Source: Spizellomyces punctatus DAOM BR117
Taxonomy: Eukaryota
DNA length: 64,000 nucleotides
Reading direction: 5' to 3' (one strand)
NCBI GenBank assembly: GCA_000182565.2
Contig: KQ257470.1
The notes beneath the pieces were generated by a model. The model was not told where the DNA came from. It ran no database searches and saw only the letters and a program-made list of their open reading frames with translations. This document shows positions 4,768-62,018 of the stretch, one piece after another (within the stretch, counting starts at the first letter, position 1; the number at the start of each line of letters is the position of its first letter). The translations under genes and the position numbers were made by a program.

Positions 4768-6335
4768 ATTCCAACGTGTACTTCGGATCATAGATTAGAC
4801 TTCCCTGTTACTGTATGGCACTTCCGAGGTGGTGAGTAAATTCCAAGCCTTGGAATGAATCCCCTTTACATTGCAGAAAACAAATTGACATTGCCTATTG
4901 CACCGATATATCGAGCTTCCCAATTCCTTGAGGAATTCGGCGCCCATTACCCTGGATGTACTTAGAGCTGTTGGCGCCGCGTGCAAGTTTCGGAGATTGC
5001 CTGAATCTAGTTTCCAATGCAGCACCGCTCAAAAAAAGATGATATCAGATTTTCCTAAACAGTCTGTGATTTGGCATTGAGGGAAAATGGATATCAATTG
5101 TTCGCATCGTTGCGTCATTATGAGAAGAAGATGCCCCACGTCGAAATGAAACCTTTGCTGATATTGATTTGAAAGTGTCACAAATCGAATCAAAAGTGAA
5201 GAACCAATCAGACATTGCAACTACTATACAAAGGTTTGAAATGAATGACAATGCTTCCTCTCGATTTGGAAGGCGTACATCTAGCCTCAGCCTAACCTCT
5301 CACCAATACTAATAATCCTACCTAATTCAACACGGACATATGTTTTCCATCAGCAAAAAATGAGGTTGATGGAAACATTCATGTTGACGCCGTGAATTGC
5401 ATTGCACCCCTTGTAGAGGGCAACACTCCATCTCGGATTTCGACAAAGGCGAGATCGTCATCGCCAGCACAGGTGTAGTAATGAGTTTCGACCTCCTCCT
5501 TTTTGATTGAAGAGGTTCACCCAAAACCACTTTATTAACAAGGATCTGAACGTCTTCCAAAACCCGGGCGGACCACTCAACACATGTGTATTGTTTGATC
5601 TGGATGTCCAGACGGTTGAAGTATTTGAATTTAAACTTAATGAGTATCTAACATTTGAATCAAATTTCAAAATCATTGGTAGTTAGGTCTAACTTCATAC
5701 AATGATAGGCACAGCCGACGATAGGATGAAGGTAAGAAGGACGTTTCATGCCCGCTCCTATTAATAATATAAAACTTTGATTCTGATATCGATATCAATT
5801 TTTTTCCCCAGCATATCGAAATGAGCAGAAACCCGCGACCGAAATAATAGTTGTCCTGTGGTGCTGCGACGTGAAACCTTATGTGGCGATAAGTAAACAT
5901 GGTGTGTGCCTAAACGAATCGTGCAAACGTAGATGGGGTCAAGTCGTGGCATCCTATGGTTGAGCCGAAGCCTTTACCTAAGAATCTTGGTTCTATTCAT
6001 TATAGTTGTATGAGAGGTGTTAAATGGCCTTGGAATCGCTGGTTCCTTTCTCCTCATGAAATCATCGAGGATTCCATGAACTCTGGGACGCAGGGTCGTA
6101 TATCAACTGAAAATGGCTGGCGAATGCAACAGCATAACCCGGTATAGAAGGTGCCTATTTAAAGAGCTTTAAAGAGCAGTACGCCCACATTCCGCAGATC
6201 ACTTACGCCCACTTACAGAAAGAAACAGGGAGCGCGCTGATAACAAAACCCAAATGACAAAGAACCTCCCCTCTGCTATGGTTATTAAAAGACATGGAGA
6301 TATGGAACAAGCCAATAGCATATATCTCCTACATA

Positions 6336-7051
6336 GTGTGGAGGTGATTGAAAATGGCACTAGGACCCATTATTATCCGGATTAATCCGGTTAATCATAT
6401 CGCATAATCAGCACCCCCTCTAACTCAAAAACGGTGTGGCATGCATGTAATGTCTTTTTATTAAACTGCGGTGAGGCGCATGCCAAAGGTCTGTAAAAGG
6501 GGAGCCTTTGCTCTCTCTCCCCTTCCTCACCAGTTCCTCGACTCTCAAACCATCTGCGCAACCCTCATCGCGACTTGGTCAATCATGAGAACGCCGATGT
6601 GGTGGTGCCGAGGACCTCGACCGCCCGACAGCAACCGTGATCAGAACCAGCGGCAACCAATCGGATCCGATAACAAAACTTACTATTATGCTGCCACATT
6701 AGTTGAGCTTGGTTGGTATGTATCGATGGCATTTCTTGCATTTCTTGTCATCGGGTCATCTTCTGACATGCAGTTTTTAGTCTCCAAGCCTTTGTCACTG
6801 AACATCCTCTGGCTTGTGACGCTGCCCAGTCGATTCGCTCCTGGATGCAAGAGTCTGGCTTCAATGCCATCAAGAGTTCCAGATCAAGGCCTAGTAGGGA
6901 CCGTGTGTGGTGGTGGGCAATTATCCGGTTAGAACCAACCGTTACGTATTGCGTGTATAATTGCCTAGTAGTAGCTTAGCTTTTCCGAACCGGTTGTCGC
7001 CGGTTTATTCTCTGGTGTAGTAGCTAGTGCCAGTTTCTGTCACCTCTACAC
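6336..7051 (+). mobile_element. Non-autonomous TIR element, Fanzor1 ghost-like, copy 1
   Basis: Left end GTGTGGAGGTGATTGAAAATGGCACTAG matches the reverse complement of the right end at 24/28. TA at 6334-35 and 7052-53. CATA at 6332-35. Homologous to the copies at 43020 and 61277. Confidence 0.9.
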
Positions 7052-7068
7052 TATTGATGAGAAACACA
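6980..7068 (+). ncRNA. Putative Fanzor omega-RNA: 74-nt scaffold (6980-7053) plus ~15-nt guide TTGATGAGAAACACA
   Basis: Scaffold CTTTTCCGAACCGGTTGTCGCCGGTTTATTCTCTGGTGTAGTAGCTAGTGCCAGTTTCTGTCACCTCTACACTA. Stem GAACCGG/CCGGTTT. Second stem GGTG..CACC has a loop TAGTG complementary to the terminal CACTA (pseudoknot). Closely resembles the SpuFz1 scaffold as recalled. Confidence 0.8.
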
Positions 7069-7999
7069 ATAATACAAAAAAAGGATTCGCGTATCGAGTT
7101 AAGGTGAAGAGTTCAGAAAGCTGCAAATGTATTTATCGAGTTCGTTCAAGTAACCATCGAAGCGTGCGCGGGGAAGTTCACGCTTGACCCGGCGAAACAT
7201 TCTTCAACAGACTTAACTACGCCGGCAAAAGCGCAGATCTTTCGAAAATAGGTGCCATGGGTTTCAATATTTTCCCCGACGTCGTCCTCTTCATCATTTT
7301 GTATCGTGCTGTTGTGTGTAGGTTCAGATAGCATTGACAATAAATCTCCTCTAACCCTTCAATGACCGTCCATGTTGTCTCTATACCTTCTCCATGTCTT
7401 CGACTGACAACAGATGGGGCAATGGTAACAGCGACGTTAAGTCCTGCCCATCCTCCAACCTTTCCACTGCTTCTCAAATTTCCTCATACCATTTTTCAGT
7501 GTCGTTCAATGAGAATGATTTGGACAACGGTAACATCGATTCTCTCTGATCGTGTGTGGCTCTAGCACGTTTGATCTTGGCGCCCTCTTCTTCTTGCCAT
7601 ATGTGAGACTCGGCGGCGCTTTGGGCATTTTGTGAAATGAGGTGTTAACAGGTTTCTGCAAGAGTATAAAACTAATATGGTAGGTAAAGGACTTGTTCCT
7701 ACCCCTATATATATCTGTGTTTGGGATCTGGATTTTCAGAATCGATATACTTAATGTGGAACCCTAAAAGTAGTGTCAATTCGCCAGGGGCAAAACGATT
7801 TTATGGAGTTAAGAGCACTTTTTCAACTGCAAACTGAGATTATGCTCTTGGGTTCCCATTAGTATCGAATGTTGAATCAAAAAACTAAATGATTAATGCT
7901 TCTCCGAAGAAACTTAAAACTAAAAAAAAAAAAGGCTGAGGCTTATGGGAGAAGCCTACCTATTTCGTCCAACTTTGTGTTGATTTTGTACACACCGTT

Positions 8000-39112: not shown

Positions 39113-40948
39113 CTACCGCAAACGAACCCCAACAGCTTCCAACTCGCTCAAAGCCCCCAAACAACAGCCCACAACATTTCTCGCACACACCAGAACCTGT
39201 CCACCCGCATCCCGATCCTTCTCATCCCGTTCCTTCATGCGCGTCAAAACCATCATCTGACCCGCTAGTGCATCAACTTGATCCAAACTCCCCAATAAGC
39301 GCGCAGAGAGAATCGGGTCGGCGCATGCCTGTGCGGGGGTACGCCATGAGCGAGAAATGGAGCGTGCGGTGGAGATGATGGATTTAGCGGATTCGATGTA
39401 CAGGGGTTTGGCGCTTGGGGTTGGTGAGCGGGTTAGTGTAGTGTGTTGGGATTCGAGGGTGGCTAGGGTGGTGGAAATATGGTTTGTGAGGGCTGTGAGA
39501 TCTGACATGTCGACTTTGGGACGGGGAGGTCTGAGGTTGATGAGTGGAGGTGTTGGGGAGGGGGGAGTGGAATGCGGAGGTGTTGGGGTCGATGGGGGCG
39601 TATGGGGTAAGGCAGAGGAAGAAGGCGCAGTCCCCTTGGTACCACTATCGGTGGTGGGAGTGCGGTCATTGTGGTTCTCGTCGATTGGTTGGTAAGCAGC
39701 GTCACATAGGTCCTTTCCTTGAACGGCATCTGTGCTTTGCATTGAGTTCTCTGGAACTTGATTCACGGGAGTCTGATCCCCATTTGTTATGGCATCGACA
39801 GACTGAAACGCAGCTTTGAGCGCCTCAATGTCGTCTGCCTTGCTATCGAGCTGAGGCGGGTCTGGGTGAGGAGTCTCCGGTTCTGATGCCTCAGGGGGAG
39901 GCGTTGCAGGCTCTTCGGTTTTGGTCTGTTGTTCTGCAGGTACCTCGAAAATTGATGCAGGCTCGATATCCCCCGGTCCTTCACTTGCCACCGATAAGGT
40001 GGCAGGTGCATTATTCACAATATGGATTTCCGTATTGGCTGTTACAACTTGGAATAGTTCCTCATCTGAAGTGGGTGCTGGAGCGGGCGATTGAGGAGCT
40101 GCTGATGCCTCCTCACGAGAGCGCCCACGGAGTATTCTGGGTTCATTGACACTTGCGCGAGGAAGAGGAGAGCGGACGACGGGGCTTGACGGTCGCTGAC
40201 CCACCGCTGTCTGCATAGACGAGGTCCTCCTTGCTGCAAATCGGGACGACCCCGAACTAGGGGATCTCAAACTCGGCGTTCGCGATCTGGAAGGTTCCGG
40301 GCTGCGCGACCTCGTCGTAGACGGTTCGAGAAAAAGTCGGTTCACTGGACGAGGTGCAGGCCTCGATCGTTCCGTGGCAAAGGAGGAATCCCATGGCGGG
40401 CGATCGACCAAATTAGACGACCTCGTCCCGGACGACACAGTCGGTGTTTCAGCTCTAAGCAGCATGGACCTCCGCCGTGAACGGTCACGCAAACCCGTAT
40501 CAATACGGGGGGCAATGGAATCAAACCGGGACGAGAATGACGCAGTGGAAGTAACGGATGGACAAGGTGACGCAGATCGCACTGGTTCCGAAAAAGTACT
40601 ACTGCCTCCACCAACCGGCCTCCACGGCGGCAAGGAAGAGGATCTTCCATTCTGCTGTTCTCTCTGCTCTCTCTGACGTCGGGCCTTGAGGTCTTCTACG
40701 CGCGCCTTCGCCTCTGCGATTCTCTCTGCCCTCAGCTTGCAAGCGTCACATCCTGAGCGATGCGTCTTGTGAGAGAAGGGAATAAAGTCCGATGCAGAAG
40801 TAGAAGAGGTAGTGGAAAACGCAGGTGAGAGGGGATAGTACTGAAGCGAGTGACGAGAGGACGACGAGGGAGAGGGAGACGACGCCGAGTGGGAGTGAGA
40901 GTGCGGAGAGCGGTAAGAGGACGAGGCGGAAGTCTGTATTCCCAACAT
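39113..40948 (-). CDS. S/R/P-rich protein with a C-terminal vinculin/alpha-catenin tail-like domain
   Basis: C-terminus YIESAKSI..AQACADPILSARLL..VDALAGQMMVLTRMK..VLVCARNVV..LSELEAVGVRLR parallels vinculin Vt (AKDI..AKQCTDKRIRTNLL..IPTISTQLKILSTVK..LVHNAQNLM..EAEAASIKIR). Start codon uncertain. Confidence 0.75.
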   Translation of the reverse strand: MLGIQTSASSSYRSPHSHSHSASSPSPSSSSRHSLQYYPLSPAFSTTSSTSASDFIPFSHKTHRSGCDACKLRAERIAEAKARVEDLKARRQREQREQQNGRSSSLPPWRPVGGGSSTFSEPVRSASPCPSVTSTASFSSRFDSIAPRIDTGLRDRSRRRSMLLRAETPTVSSGTRSSNLVDRPPWDSSFATERSRPAPRPVNRLFLEPSTTRSRSPEPSRSRTPSLRSPSSGSSRFAARRTSSMQTAVGQRPSSPVVRSPLPRASVNEPRILRGRSREEASAAPQSPAPAPTSDEELFQVVTANTEIHIVNNAPATLSVASEGPGDIEPASIFEVPAEQQTKTEEPATPPPEASEPETPHPDPPQLDSKADDIEALKAAFQSVDAITNGDQTPVNQVPENSMQSTDAVQGKDLCDAAYQPIDENHNDRTPTTDSGTKGTAPSSSALPHTPPSTPTPPHSTPPSPTPPLINLRPPRPKVDMSDLTALTNHISTTLATLESQHTTLTRSPTPSAKPLYIESAKSIISTARSISRSWRTPAQACADPILSARLLGSLDQVDALAGQMMVLTRMKERDEKDRDAGGQVLVCARNVVGCCLGALSELEAVGVRLR

Positions 40949-41324
40949 CTTGTCCCCGTCCAAGTTTGATACCTCTCAAACGAGTGGAAATGCCCGCGAG
41001 AAGCAAGTGTCCAATGCCGCACCTCCAATGCAAAAAGTGTGATGTCCAGCAAAGAAGAAAAGAAGGAAAGCGGTGAAAAGGAGAGACGAGACTGTTACCT
41101 AATGCATTTGATCCACATTTGTATGATATACACAGCCACTCACATGACTCTCACGTGCTTCTGCAATGGGGCACTTTGTTTATAAGCCGTTTGGGCCGTT
41201 TGGGTTTTCCAATCAGCAAATGGGCGATACTTGGGTGGTAGGGAGCATCTGGTGCATGAGCAATCGTCTATATTCACTACAATGCTATATATACATGCAT
41301 AACACTTTTTGTTATCGACGTCAT

Positions 41325-42866: not shown

Positions 42867-43019
42867 TTAATTGTCATGCTCCAACAGTTGTCATGCGTTC
42901 CATTGTCGACAAGGTGTGAGGCTCCAAAAGGAACGATCTGCGACAAGGTTTGCAGTGGACAGGTGGAGTACTAAGCACGTCATGATAAACTTTAATTTTC
43001 AACGCTTTTGGATTTCTTA

Positions 43020-43752
43020 GTGTGGAGGTGATTGAAAATGGCACTAGGACCCATTATTATCCGGATTAATCCGGTTAGTCATATCGCATAATCAGAGCCC
43101 CCTCTATCGCTCAGATTGGTGTGGCATGCATGTAATGTTTTTTTTTTTTTTTTTAAAACTGCGGTGAGGTGCATGCCGAAGGTCTATAAAAGGGGGACCT
43201 TCTGTCTCTTTCCCCTTTCCTCTTTACCCATCCTCAACTCTCGAAGCATCTGCGCAACGCTCACGCAGCACTCTCAAGTCCATCATGAGAATGCCGCTCT
43301 GGTGTCGAGGACCTCGCCCTCCCGACAAAAACAACTTAACCCCTTGCAAACGCTGCTACTACTATACTGCTACGATCGCAGGTATTTCTTGCTGATTTTC
43401 CCACGCGTATTCCGAGTCTAATTCTGATCTACCTTAGTATCTGAAAATCCTCCGACCAAAGAATCTCGGAATCAAGGGCTTAGTAGGATTTCTCTCGTGG
43501 TGGTGGGCTTAGTTACCCGGTTAGAACCAACCGTAATGTATTGCATGTGTCATTGGGCCTAGTAGTAGTTAGCTTTTCACGTACCCCAGTTCAACCCAGG
43601 CTGGAACCTGTAGCGAGTTAGGATAGGGGTGGGACTCGCTTGCAGGATAGGTTATGAAGGGTTGGACAGGCTGGCTAATTGCAAATTAGAACCGGCTGTA
43701 GTGGGTTGGAGGGAGAATTTGTTCCTAGTGACATTTTCTACCACCTGCACAC
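43020..43752 (+). mobile_element. Non-autonomous TIR element, Fanzor1 ghost-like, copy 2 (long 3' module)
   Basis: Same left end as copy 1. Right-end reverse complement GTGTGCAGGTGGTAGAAAATGTCACTAGGA matches at 26/30. TA at 43018-19 and 43753-54. CTTA immediately 5'. Confidence 0.9.
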
Positions 43753-43769
43753 TAAGGCTAGGAATGCAA
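43573..43769 (+). ncRNA. Putative extended omega-RNA: ~182-nt scaffold plus guide AGGCTAGGAATGCAA
   Basis: Begins at the same GCTTTTC anchor as copies 1 and 3 and ends in CACTA. Contains several hairpins. The last stem has TAGTG in its loop, complementary to CACTA. Confidence 0.6.
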
Positions 43770-61259: not shown

Positions 61260-61348
61260 TACAGAGAGCTATACTAGTGTATTGGCAATAACAAATGTCA
61301 CAACACAATACACCAGGGAATAAACCAGCGACAACCAGCCCGGAAAAG
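61260..61348 (-). ncRNA. Putative omega-RNA: 74-nt scaffold (61348-61275) plus guide GTATAGCTCTCTGTA
   Basis: Scaffold CTTTTCCGGGCTGGTTGTCGCTGGTTTATTCCCTGGTGTATTGTGTTGTGACATTTGTTATTGCCAATACACTA. Same length as copy 1. Stem 1 is kept through G-U pairs. Confidence 0.7.
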
Positions 61349-61930
61349 CCAAGTAAGTCCCTCCTTACAACCAACTACTGCTACTAGGCTCAATTACACA
61401 TGCAATACATTACGGTTGTTCTAACCGGGTAACTAAGCCCACCACCACGAGAGAAATCTTACTAAGCCCTTGATTCCGAGATTCTTTGGTCGGAGGATGT
61501 TCAGATACTAAGGTAGATCAGAATAATTAGACTGGATAATCCGCGTGGGAAAATACAAAGATAATGCATACCTGCGATCGTTGCAGCATAGTAGTAGCAG
61601 CGTTTGCAAGGGGTTCTGATTGCTGTTGCTGTCGGGCGGACGAGGTCCTCGGCACCAGAGCGGCATTCTCATGATGGACTTGAGAGTGTTGCTTGAATGT
61701 TGCGCAGATGCTTGCAAGTCGAGGGTAAAGAAACAAGAGGGAAGAGGGAGCAGGTCCCCTTTTATAGACCTTCAGCATGCACCTCACCGCAGTTTTAAAA
61801 AAAAGTTACATTATATTAGCATGCCACACCGATATGAGTGATAGATGGGGGGTGCTGATTATGCGATATGATTAACTGGATTAATCCGGATAATAATGGG
61901 TCCTAGTGCCATATTCAATCACCTCCACAG
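61277..61930 (-). mobile_element. Non-autonomous TIR element, Fanzor1 ghost-like, copy 3
   Basis: Minus-strand left end CTGTGGAGGTGATTGAATATGGCACTAGG is preceded by CATA (61934-31). TA at 61275-76. Interior is near-identical to copy 2 and the 3' end is collinear with copy 1. Confidence 0.9.
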
Positions 61931-62018
61931 TATGTACTGATTGTATACTGTGTAAACTGTGCATTTGTAAATATTCGCCTTTTACTATCTTCTATCTGAC
62001 TACCTAACTTAATAGTCC

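What the first reader, a model, noticed from the sequence alone, without database searches (positions are those of the whole stretch)
6332..7068. Fanzor (eukaryotic RNA-guided nuclease) ghost locus: CATA | TIR ... omega-RNA scaffold | guide; one of three copies in 64 kb
Seen: three homologous 654-733 bp elements (6336-7051 +, 43020-43752 +, 61277-61930 -). Each has imperfect ~28-30 bp TIRs, TA on both sides, CATA/CTTA/CATA directly 5', and a structured 3' end finishing in CACTA where homology stops abruptly. Established: Spizellomyces punctatus Fanzor1 (SpuFz1) uses a 5'-CATA TAM, encodes its omega-RNA over the 3' TIR with the guide taken from flanking DNA, and has ORF-less ghost loci. The 74-nt segment 6980-7053 closely matches the SpuFz1 scaffold as I recall it (TTTTCCGA.CCGGTTGTCGC..GGTT..TC.CTGGTG....GCTAGTGCCA...CACTA); this needs a real alignment. 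Inference: a dispersed family of guide-RNA cassettes serving a Fanzor encoded elsewhere.
Basis: partly seen in the sequence, partly recalled or inferred. Interest (0 to 1): 0.93.

Follow-up and report, generated by a model that had tools for sequence, protein, structure and literature searches.

The report
Three known Fanzor ghost guide-RNA elements
These are three copies of a small mobile element that carries the guide-RNA scaffold of the fungal RNA-guided nuclease Fanzor but not the nuclease gene; they are real, but this element family was already described in 2023.

Summary
Three homologous elements lie at 6334-7053 (+), 43018-43754 (+) and 61275-61932 (-). Each has 30-nt terminal inverted repeats that start with TA. 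CA lies directly upstream in two of three copies, and homology stops sharply after ...CACTA.

The interpretation also holds. In copies A and C the last 74 nt carry 15 of the 18 nucleotides that Saito et al. 2023 name by position in the SpuFz1 omega-RNA. These are the two best scores of 127,840 start positions scanned. The fold gives two stems and a linker, with the ghost-type 3-nt bulge. The only protein relatives of the internal ORF are two 'uncharacterized' proteins of Spizellomyces punctatus DAOM BR117.

The elements therefore fit the published 'ghost Spu-1' family (134 loci). The finding is correct but already known. Copy B has a divergent scaffold and CTTA instead of CATA.

Two details are absent from the main texts I searched. 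The family is transcribed on the + strand from behind a TATA-like box, and a 65-nt GT..AG intron is spliced out. A conserved structured block also lies just upstream of the scaffold.

The parts
6332..6335 (+). CATA at the left border of copy A. CA lies outside the element and TA forms the first two bases of the 30-nt repeat. It equals the published SpuFz1 TAM.
   Evidence: TAM from PMC10432273 section 8 passage
6334..7053 (+). Ghost element copy A (720 nt including the terminal TA at each end).
6334..6363 (+). Left 30-nt inverted repeat of A.
   Evidence: 26/30 against the right repeat
6369..6398 (.). Subterminal palindrome (CCGGATTAATCCGG core), invariant in all three copies.
   Evidence: self-match on the opposite strand, 86.7% over 30 nt
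6492..6502 (+). TATA-like box, found with the pattern T[AG]TAAAAGGGG at the matching place in all three copies. Calling it a promoter is inference.
   Evidence: element positions 159, 168, 167
6551..6562 (+). Invariant motif CATCTGCGCAAC, about 60 nt behind the TATA-like box. RNA coverage of the family begins here or just upstream.
   Evidence: depth 7 in bin 6510-6550, 2281 in bin 6551-6591; clipped reads at 6579 continue upstream through this motif in paralogues
6716..6780 (+). 65-nt GT..AG intron, seen spliced out in RNA reads.
   Evidence: 447 reads, 14 starts, in X22; the same splice in a paralogue form in X22, 162 reads, and in one X6 contig; annotated paralogue protein follows the spliced frame
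6909..6978 (+). Conserved structured block directly upstream of the scaffold: a long G.U-rich stem closing two small hairpins. Family RNA depth peaks here.
   Evidence: 26 pairs, 98.7% of cells paired against 27-44% when slid; 2 compensatory pairs; a matched 2-nt insertion on both arms; 35,241 in bin 6920-6960
6980..7053 (+). Omega-RNA scaffold of copy A (74 nt). Stem-loop 1 is 6987-7006, the linker about 7007-7012, and stem 2 about 7013-7053, which overlaps the right inverted repeat 7024-7053.
7054..7068 (+). Presumed 15-nt guide of copy A, which is flank DNA. It is unique in the window and is preceded by ACTA, not CATA.
   Evidence: guide length from PMC10432273 section 7
43018..43754 (+). 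Ghost element copy B. CTTA stands at its left border (43016-43019). The homologous intron is at 43382-43437. Extra sequence of about 115 nt lies between the conserved block and the 3' end. The terminal scaffold (about 43681-43754) is divergent. The presumed guide is 43755-43769.
61275..61932 (-). Ghost element copy C. CATA is at 61934-61931, the homologous intron at 61508-61571, the scaffold at 61348-61275 and the presumed guide at 61274-61260. The right repeat has diverged from the left (17/30), but stem 2 still pairs.

Best explanation
These are three members of the published 'ghost Spu-1' family of Spizellomyces punctatus. Ghost Spu-1 elements are non-autonomous relatives of the Fanzor1 (SpuFz1) transposon that keep the inverted repeats and the omega-RNA gene but have no nuclease ORF.

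Proposed working. (1) The element is transcribed on its + strand from an internal TATA-like promoter. A short intron is removed, and the transcript runs through the right inverted repeat into the flank. (2) Fanzor1 protein made from other loci binds stem-loop 1, the linker and the base of stem 2. The mature RNA is the 74-75-nt scaffold plus 14-15 nt of flank, which serves as the guide. (3) The complex cuts double-stranded DNA that reads 5'-CATA followed by the guide.

For copies A and C that target is exactly the unoccupied insertion site, CA + one TA + right flank. The cassette therefore targets its own empty site. The occupied locus is spared because its flank is preceded by ACTA.

What is shown here: the anatomy, the positional match to the SpuFz1 omega-RNA, transcription and splicing at family level, and the organism. 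What is taken from the literature: protein binding, the TAM, guide length and cleavage. What is inferred: the promoter, maturation of the omega-RNA from the spliced transcript, and the empty-site logic. Copy B (CTTA, divergent scaffold) is probably a weakened or dead cassette.
For: Three copies have 30-nt TA-started repeats, with CA upstream in 2/3.

Copies A and C carry 15/18 of the nucleotides named by position in the cryo-EM description of the SpuFz1 omega-RNA, in one shared register. They rank 1-2 of 127,840 starts.

The fold of A has two stems and a linker. Stem-loop 1 has 7 pairs plus a U.G, the loop is UGUC, and stem 2 has a 3-nt bulge. This agrees with 'two stems and a linker' and 'a 3-nt bulge' for ghosts in PMC10432273 and with '7 base pairs in SL1' in PMC11423790 (passage).

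Element sizes of 658-737 nt fit 'about 550 nt conserved flanked by 30-nt IRs'.

The only 2 database relatives of the internal ORF (of 7 candidates) are named as S. punctatus DAOM BR117 proteins, at 98% and 69% identity.

RNA run X22 gives + strand depth of 2,000-35,000 from about 6551 to about 7050, against 4 or less in the flanking bins beyond 6304 and 7084. The intron is spliced in 447 reads. DNA-like contigs of X14 join the element to both unique flanks with 0 mismatches.

The guides are unique in the window and are preceded by ACTA.
Against: No direct alignment to a published omega-RNA sequence or to the list of 134 loci was possible, because supplements are closed and the main texts hold no sequence.

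The template scan is only modestly selective window-wide: three unrelated places reach 14/18.

No Fanzor ORF was seen in the window. This rests on the 10 longest of 28 stop-to-stop ORFs of 180 aa or more. The rest of the genome could not be searched, so 'nuclease elsewhere' rests on the paper.

Most RNA reads laid on copy A come from paralogues: 121,333 of 128,198 fit only partly, and at 7011 the window's base is in 4% of reads or fewer. Expression of copy A itself, and a 90-nt RNA ending 15 nt into the flank, are therefore not shown.

Copy B fails the template (10/18 at most), lacks the TAM, and its 3' end folds no better than shuffles.

Covariation rests on 3 sequences and does not beat the shuffle control (57/500 and 62/500).
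Confidence: 0.92

Rival explanations
1. An ordinary TA-target miniature inverted-repeat element (Tc1/mariner-like MITE) with no link to Fanzor. On this reading the structured 3' end is only the hairpin that any inverted repeat can form.
For: TA at both ends and 26/30 inverted repeats. Bao & Jurka 2013 call the TA of SPu-1 a putative target-site duplication (PMC3627910, passage). Rfam has no match, even at E up to 1.
Against: A and C match 15/18 of the named SpuFz1 omega-RNA positions, including all 8 named positions in the 5' strand and loop of stem-loop 1, which lie outside the inverted repeat. CA is upstream in 2/3. The family occurs in S. punctatus, where exactly such ghost loci are published.
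Confidence: 0.03
2. The elements are transcribed relics. Their RNA is made, but the copies in this window no longer act as guides. Alternatively, the abundant transcript has another role and the omega-RNA is a by-product.
For: Copy B has CTTA and a divergent scaffold. C has lost repeat symmetry (17/30). RNA depth peaks upstream of the scaffold and falls across it, from 35,241 in bin 6920-6960 to 7,677 in bin 7002-7042. Most reads are from paralogues. PMC13434818 reports that distant ghost scaffolds edit less well (section 8).
Against: A and C keep every named protein-contact nucleotide except G22. C keeps stem 2 through changes on both arms, although its repeat has diverged. Four 75-nt ghost scaffolds worked in human cells (PMC10432273, passage). 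The fall in depth near a transcript end and in less conserved sequence is expected for 60-nt reads laid at 95% likeness.
Confidence: 0.2
3. The element carries a small protein-coding gene (73-109 codons after splicing), and that protein, not the RNA, is what is conserved.
For: A conserved ATG lies about 90 nt behind the TATA-like box. In the first 16 codons, 6 of 9 substitutions among the three copies fall on third positions, and the one indel is 3 nt (my count). Two paralogues are annotated as proteins.
Against: Behind the first ~44 codons the frame is not kept. Spliced ORF lengths are 109, 73 and 35 codons in A, B and C, and the two annotated paralogues leave A's frame at different points. 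There is no PDB relative at E up to 10. Only 2 database relatives were found, both from the same genome. I did not scan this ORF against Pfam.
Confidence: 0.08

Closest known systems
Ghost Spu-1 elements of Spizellomyces punctatus DAOM BR117 (Saito et al. 2023, Nature, PMC10432273; 126 unique scaffolds re-catalogued in PMC13434818)
   Same: 30-nt inverted repeats, CA upstream, no Fanzor ORF, a conserved interior of several hundred nt, a 74-76-nt scaffold across the 3' repeat with a ghost-type stem 2, a guide taken from the flank, and the same host species.
   Different: Nothing that defines the family. Copy B is a divergent member: CTTA, an altered 5' CC and linker, and about 115 nt of extra sequence. 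I did not find the internal TATA-like box, the intron or the upstream structured block mentioned in the main texts searched. Supplements and figures were not visible.
Canonical SPu-1 / Spu-1 Fanzor1 transposon (Bao & Jurka 2013, PMC3627910; Saito et al. 2023)
   Same: Inverted repeats, TA ends, and an omega-RNA over the right end. 15/18 of the named scaffold nucleotides are shared by A and C.
   Different: The canonical element is about 2.1 kb and has a 633-638-aa Fanzor1 ORF. Its repeats differ from ghost repeats at seven positions, and its stem 2 ends in an 8-nt loop. Here there is no such ORF; the longest internal ATG-started ORF is 150 aa.
TnpB omega-RNA of IS200/IS605 (OMEGA systems) and their non-autonomous derivatives
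   Same: It works alike. The RNA is encoded over the right end, the guide is the DNA just outside the element, and the TAM sits at the left border, so the RNA addresses the empty or donor site. The homing role of TnpB is summarised in the discussion of PMC10432273.
   Different: This is a eukaryotic host. The element has terminal inverted repeats and TA ends rather than subterminal hairpins. SpuFz1's omega-RNA has no pseudoknot. Here there is also a spliced, TATA-associated transcript. No transposase is known for Spu-1.
Tc1/mariner-type MITEs (TA target-site duplication)
   Same: Small size, terminal inverted repeats, TA at both ends, multiple copies.
   Different: The right end encodes a protein-binding guide-RNA scaffold. 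No Tc1/mariner transposase link is shown, here or in the papers read.

Membership tests
ghost Spu-1 element (Saito et al. 2023) | Two conserved 30-nt inverted repeats at the ends | tested here: met
   26/30, 26/30 and 17/30 left against right. The left repeat is near-identical in all 3 copies.
ghost Spu-1 element (Saito et al. 2023) | Conserved CA directly upstream of the 5' repeat, which together with TA reads as the CATA TAM | tested here: met
   CA in A and C, CT in B. P about 0.015 for 2 or more of 3.
ghost Spu-1 element (Saito et al. 2023) | No Fanzor ORF between the repeats; conserved interior of about 550 nt | tested here: met
   Elements are 658-737 nt. The longest internal ATG-started ORF in A is 150 aa. 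Its 115-aa part from the conserved ATG has no PDB relative.
ghost Spu-1 element (Saito et al. 2023) | A region of 74-76 nt across the 3' repeat similar to the SpuFz1 omega-RNA scaffold | tested here: met
   A and C match 15/18 named positions and are the top two scores in the window. B matches 10/18 at most. This is an indirect test, because no published sequence could be aligned.
ghost Spu-1 element (Saito et al. 2023) | Scaffold fold: stem-loop 1 (7 bp), a linker, and stem 2 with a 3-nt bulge | tested here: met
   Predicted fold of A. Pairs are kept in 92.6% of cells over the 3 copies, against 33-52% when slid.
ghost Spu-1 element (Saito et al. 2023) | An RNA of 88-90 nt whose 3' end lies 14-15 nt beyond the repeat | tested here: inconclusive
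   One search shows strong + strand family RNA up to the right end, and depth 3.2 in bin 7084-7124. Reads are 60 nt from an ordinary RNA library, most come from paralogues, and no ends table was returned.
ghost Spu-1 element (Saito et al. 2023) | Host genome carries Fanzor1 genes elsewhere | not testable with these tools
   No genome is held for the window. The paper reports 42 Fz loci. No Fz was found among the window's 10 longest ORFs.
ghost Spu-1 element (Saito et al. 2023) | Host is Spizellomyces punctatus | tested here: met
   Both relatives of the internal ORF are named S. punctatus DAOM BR117 proteins, one at 98% identity. The window's own proteins are in the same sources, with names withheld.
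ghost Spu-1 element (Saito et al. 2023) | Listed among the 134 published loci or the 126 gst scaffolds | not testable with these tools
Tc1/mariner-type MITE | TA target-site duplication, shown by an empty site | not testable with these tools
   TA is present at both ends, but no empty site or second genome was available.
Tc1/mariner-type MITE | Repeats shared with a Tc1/mariner transposase-encoding element | not tested
   No transposase within Spu-1 repeats was found by Saito et al.. None was searched for here.
IS200/IS605 TnpB omega-RNA | Bacterial or archaeal IS with subterminal hairpins, TnpA/TnpB, and an omega-RNA with a pseudoknot | tested here: not met
   The window is eukaryotic (spliced genes; Pfam content). 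The element has terminal inverted repeats. SpuFz1's omega-RNA lacks the pseudoknot. The element works like this system but is not a member.

The most novel reading that the evidence does not exclude
Ghost Spu-1 elements are not bare repeat-plus-scaffold relics. They are self-contained, promoter-bearing genes for a spliced non-coding transcript. In that transcript a conserved, G.U-rich structured domain (6909-6978) sits directly upstream of the omega-RNA, and the omega-RNA is matured from the transcript's 3' end. Copy C has lost inverted-repeat symmetry (17/30) but keeps stem 2 by changes on both arms, which suggests that selection acts on the RNA rather than on mobility. On this reading the family is a domesticated guide-RNA gene family with a eukaryote-type biogenesis route.
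Probability: 0.4. Interest if true: 0.5.

Novelty: already known. Interest (0 to 1): 0.25.

Why it matters
Fanzor is the eukaryotic counterpart of TnpB and Cas12 and is being developed as a genome editor. Its ghost loci are the natural pool of alternative guide scaffolds.

These three loci add nothing to the catalogue. They do show that the family can be recognised from raw sequence. They also give a worked anatomy: the empty-site logic of CA + TA + flank, one weakened copy, and one copy that keeps the RNA pairing while its repeat decays.

The transcription unit, the intron and the upstream structured block bear on an open question: how a eukaryote makes an omega-RNA, and why the ghost interior is conserved. 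If these details are not already in the papers' supplements, they are worth a short follow-up.

Tried and rejected
(1) A search of the window's own genome for further copies and for a Fanzor ORF: no genome is held.

(3) Rfam gave only a tRNA at gathering scores for the whole window, and nothing at E up to 1 for 6300-7100.

(4) Text searches for short scaffold motifs in the main texts of PMC10432273 and PMC13434818 gave 0 hits, so no published sequence could be aligned.

(5) The 620-aa ORF at 39113-40975 was checked as a possible Fanzor. It has no Pfam family and no PDB relative, and it reads as serine- and proline-rich low-complexity sequence. It was rejected.

(6) A metagenome scan with an 18-nt pattern from the conserved block returned 4 loci. 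All 4 share only the 19-nt word with the element. They are chance or unrelated and add no further copies.

(7) An exact look-up of 10 window proteins found 4 in the collection, with names withheld.

(8) The internal ORF against the PDB at E up to 10 gave nothing.

(9) X14 depth inside the element is 100-645, against 2-4 in the flanks. This fits a high-copy family, but the tool states that depth is not a copy number, so I draw no count from it.

(10) The covariation shuffle controls do not reach significance with 3 sequences.
Full report
OBSERVATION. Counting the terminal TA, they are A 6334-7053 (+, 720 nt), B 43018-43754 (+, 737 nt) and C 61275-61932 (-, 658 nt). A 27-nt pattern from the left end hits these three places and no other at up to 3 mismatches, and none of 100 shuffles gave a hit. 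By BLAST, A is 81.3% and 80.5% identical to B and C over the first ~300 nt. It is similar again over about 80 nt just before the 3' end (85.5% to B). B and C are 86.2% alike over 566 columns. The middle of A is not alignable to B or C.

The ends are 30-nt inverted repeats that begin with TA. Left and right agree at 26/30 in A, 26/30 in B and 17/30 in C. The two bases outside the left repeat are CA, CT and CA, so the border reads CATA, CTTA, CATA. With the window's CA frequency of 0.071, two or more of three has P about 0.015. All copies end in CACTA, and the flanks beyond share nothing. A BLAST of the three elements against the whole window found no further copy. It found only an 18-nt exact relic of the right end at 22434-22451.

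WHAT THE LITERATURE SAYS. I read sections 7, 10 and 11 of Saito et al. 2023 (PMC10432273) in full, and passages elsewhere in it. The paper makes these points:
- SpuFz1 lies in a ~2.1-kb element with 30-nt inverted repeats, and a conserved CA stands upstream of the 5' repeat.
- The genome of S. punctatus DAOM BR117 has 42 loci with Fz genes and 134 'ghost Spu-1' loci.
- Ghost loci have the repeats, CA, a conserved ~550-nt region and a 75-nt region over the 3' repeat like that of Fz loci, but no Fz ORF.
- The omega-RNA is a 75-nt scaffold plus a 14-15-nt guide from the flank.
- The TAM is 5'-CATA, and any change to it abolishes cleavage.
- Ghost scaffolds from four loci worked in human cells, and they have a 3-nt bulge in stem 2 instead of an 8-nt loop.

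[quoted passage not shown] A 2026 paper (PMC13434818; passages and part 1 of section 8) catalogued 126 unique ghost scaffolds of 74-76 nt. It found that those far from the canonical scaffold edit less well.

TESTING THE SCAFFOLD CLAIM. No published sequence could be aligned. The main texts contain none (0 hits for motifs), and supplements are closed. Section 10 of Saito et al. names 18 scaffold nucleotides by position: U5 C6 C7 U16 G17 U18 C19 G20 G22 A29 C32 C34 U35 G37 C40 G70 A72 A75.

I slid this template over both strands of the window, allowing one 1-nt shift after position 21. That gave 127,840 starts. The two best scores, 15/18, are copy A with position 1 at 6980 and copy C with position 1 at 61348 (-). 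Both have the same -1 shift. Unrelated places reach 14 (3 starts) and 13 (19 starts). The scan is thus only modestly selective over the whole window. At the one place and register predicted beforehand, however, 15/18 is far beyond the chance expectation of about 4.5, which is my own calculation.

The misses are G22, and C40 and G70. C40 and G70 bound the distal stem 2, which the paper calls dispensable and different in ghosts.

The predicted fold of A has three features (-23.4 kcal/mol, z = -3.7, 0/200 shuffles as good):
- Stem-loop 1 has seven pairs plus a closing U.G, with a UGUC loop at positions 16-19.
- A single-stranded linker follows.
- Stem 2 carries a 3-nt bulge.

This matches 'two stems and a linker', the ghost-type bulge, and the seven-pair SL1 of Fz1 RNAs (PMC11423790, passage). 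Over the three copies, 92.6% of pair cells are standard pairs, against 33-52% when partners are slid, and two pairs change on both sides. The shuffle control is not significant with three sequences (62/500).

Between A and C, all four differences within stem-loop 1 are transitions that turn Watson-Crick pairs into G.U pairs, which only an RNA of the + strand tolerates. Copy B is different. Its best template score is 10/18, off register. In the alignment it keeps U16 G17 U18 and G20 but has lost C6, C7, C19 and the linker. Its 3' end folds no better than shuffles (z = -0.9).

ORGANISM. No genome is held for the window, and the window's own proteins are listed without names. The ORF that starts at the conserved ATG inside copy A (6585-6929, 115 aa unspliced) has two relatives among 7 candidates in the large protein collection. 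Both are named 'uncharacterized protein SPPG_... [Spizellomyces punctatus DAOM BR117]', at 98% and 69% identity. They lie on other contigs and come from the same sources as the window's proteins. The window content is eukaryotic: a DEAD-box helicase with a GUCT domain, a mitochondrial carrier, a cyclin and an AMPK beta domain. The window is therefore most likely from S. punctatus, the very genome in which ghost loci were described.

RNA EVIDENCE. I laid four coded runs on 6100-7300.

X14 has contigs that join both unique flanks to the element with 0 mismatches (2217-nt and 534-nt records). Its organism label is therefore that of the window.

X22 is raw RNA reads with the same species label; about 6% of the run was read. 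Its profile is as follows:
- Depth is 4 or less in the bins left of 6305 and right of 7083.
- On the + strand, depth is 2,281 in bin 6551-6591.
- It rises to 35,241 in bin 6920-6960.
- It is 27,230 in bin 6961-7001, 7,677 in bin 7002-7042 and 1,115 in bin 7043-7083.
- The other strand stays at or below 132.

A joint that skips 6716-6780 (65 nt, GT..AG on the + strand) is seen in 447 reads from 14 starts. The same splice in a paralogue's sequence is seen in 162 reads and in one contig of X6. The splice orientation fixes the RNA as + sense.

The caveats are important. Of 128,198 reads, 121,333 fit only partly. At several positions the window's base is in the minority (at 7011 it is in at most 4% of reads). 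The signal is therefore that of the family, not of copy A. The reads are 60 nt from an ordinary library, and no table of molecule ends was returned. The published 88-90-nt species, and its 3' end in A's flank, are thus neither shown nor excluded.

ANATOMY OF THE INTERIOR. All three copies share the following:
- a subterminal palindrome (6369-6398 in A);
- a T-run;
- a TATA-like box (T[AG]TAAAAGGGG; 6492-6502 in A);
- an invariant CATCTGCGCAAC about 60 nt further on (6551-6562), where family coverage starts. Clipped reads at 6579 continue upstream through this motif in paralogues;
- a conserved ATG (6585);
- a GT..AG intron at the homologous place (65, 56 and 64 nt).

Protein coding is doubtful. 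Spliced ORFs are 109, 73 and 35 codons in A, B and C. The two annotated paralogues leave A's frame at different points. One of them follows the spliced frame across the same exon junction, so the public annotation also used this intron. Only the first ~14 codons look constrained: in the first 16 codons, 6 of 9 substitutions are at third positions and the indel is 3 nt (my count, on three copies). I leave this unexplained.

Directly upstream of the scaffold lies a block (6909-6978) that is the best conserved internal part. It folds into a long stem closing two hairpins. Of its 26 pairs, 98.7% of cells are paired, against 27-44% when slid. Two pairs change on both sides. A 2-nt insertion on the 5' arm in B and C is matched by a 2-nt insertion on the 3' arm. 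Many pairs are G.U, which again points to the + strand RNA (the shuffle control gave 57/500, and the structure was derived from these same sequences). In C and B extra sequence (27 and about 115 nt) separates this block from the scaffold.

HOW IT MOST LIKELY WORKS. The element is transcribed from its own promoter (inferred) and spliced (shown for the family). The transcript runs through the right repeat into the flank. A soil metatranscriptome contig carries a near-identical scaffold followed by 53 nt of another flank (X1), but that library may contain DNA. Fanzor1 from other loci binds the scaffold, and the final RNA keeps 14-15 nt of flank as the guide (published).

The target must read CATA + guide. 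For A and C the site without the element would read CA + TA + right flank, if one TA is a target-site duplication or if the left TA belongs to the target. That is TAM plus guide, so each cassette addresses its own empty site, as TnpB does. If both TAs left with the element, the empty site would lack the TAM. The geometry therefore argues that one TA stays behind (inference).

The occupied locus is safe, because the guide-matching flank is preceded by ACTA. The three guides have no second 12-nt match in the window. B, with CTTA and a divergent scaffold, is probably inactive. C has a decayed right repeat (17/30) but intact stem 2 pairing. This suggests the RNA, rather than mobility, is what has been kept. 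That rests on one copy and is only a hint.

RIVALS. An unrelated TA-target MITE is excluded for practical purposes by the scaffold match outside the repeat and by the host species. 'Transcribed relics' remains open for these particular copies, because copy-specific small RNAs were not seen. A small protein gene is unlikely, because the frame is not kept.

COMPARISON AND NOVELTY. The elements meet every definable feature of the published ghost Spu-1 family that I could test. The features left untested were the 90-nt RNA, the Fanzor gene elsewhere in the genome, and the loci's presence in the published list. They work like TnpB omega-RNA cassettes but are not members of IS200/IS605.

The finding is already known.

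Some details may be new. The words intron, spliced and TATA do not occur in the main texts of PMC13434818 and PMC11423790. In PMC10432273 I searched intron, spliced, Pol II and promoter, but not TATA; promoter occurs there only for expression vectors. A search for Fanzor + ghost returned only two papers. Fanzor + biogenesis + polymerase II returned 5 papers, of which 4 were listed and seen as listings only; none had these terms in its title or abstract. The possibly new details are the TATA-associated spliced transcript and the structured block upstream of the scaffold. Figures and supplements, which I could not see, may already show them.

Supplements were closed.

Noticed in passing
window 22434-22451: An exact 18-nt copy of the outer end of copy A's right inverted repeat (ending in CACTA), with no recognisable scaffold upstream. 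It is probably the stump of a truncated or deleted element.
   Followed up: partly
window 6305-6427 (+) and 6469-6509 (-): Besides the main transcript, RNA run X22 shows a much weaker + strand signal over the left repeat and palindrome (depth 67-229). It also shows about 40 reads on the opposite strand around the TATA-like box. These are family-level signals of unknown origin.
   Followed up: no
window 6585-6632 and the homologous parts of B and C: The first ~14 codons behind the conserved ATG keep the peptide stretch W-C-R-G-P-R-P-P-D in all three copies. The DNA differences there fall on third codon positions. Further on the frame is not kept. This could be a short conserved upstream ORF or a chance pattern.
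   Followed up: partly
window 6370-6378 and 6920-6928: The word ATTATCCGG, followed by similar bases, occurs near the left end and again in the conserved block before the scaffold. Both are on the + strand, so the repeat is direct. CCGGTT-type words recur in stem-loop 1. They could be protein-binding subterminal repeats.
   Followed up: no
window 43575-43690 (copy B) and 61349-61375 (copy C): Extra sequence lies between the conserved block and the scaffold, about 115 nt in B and 27 nt in C, and the two partly align with each other. Just before its insert, B also keeps the first few bases of an A-like scaffold start.
   Followed up: partly
run X1 (soil metatranscriptome), laid on 6976-7053: A 131-nt contig carries a scaffold with 1 mismatch to copy A and continues for 53 nt into a different flank. 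A near-identical ghost copy therefore occurs in an environmental RNA library. The library may contain DNA.
   Followed up: no
window 14570-14652: A tRNA gene (Rfam RF00005, 55.6 bits). At 83 nt against a 71-position model, it may have an intron or a long variable arm.
   Followed up: no
window 39116-40948 (-): A 611-aa serine- and proline-rich ORF with no Pfam family and no PDB relative. It is present as an exact protein in public collections.
   Followed up: partly
window 43139-43156: The T-run upstream of the TATA-like box is 18 T in copy B but much shorter in A and C. This tract varies in length within the presumed promoter region.
   Followed up: no
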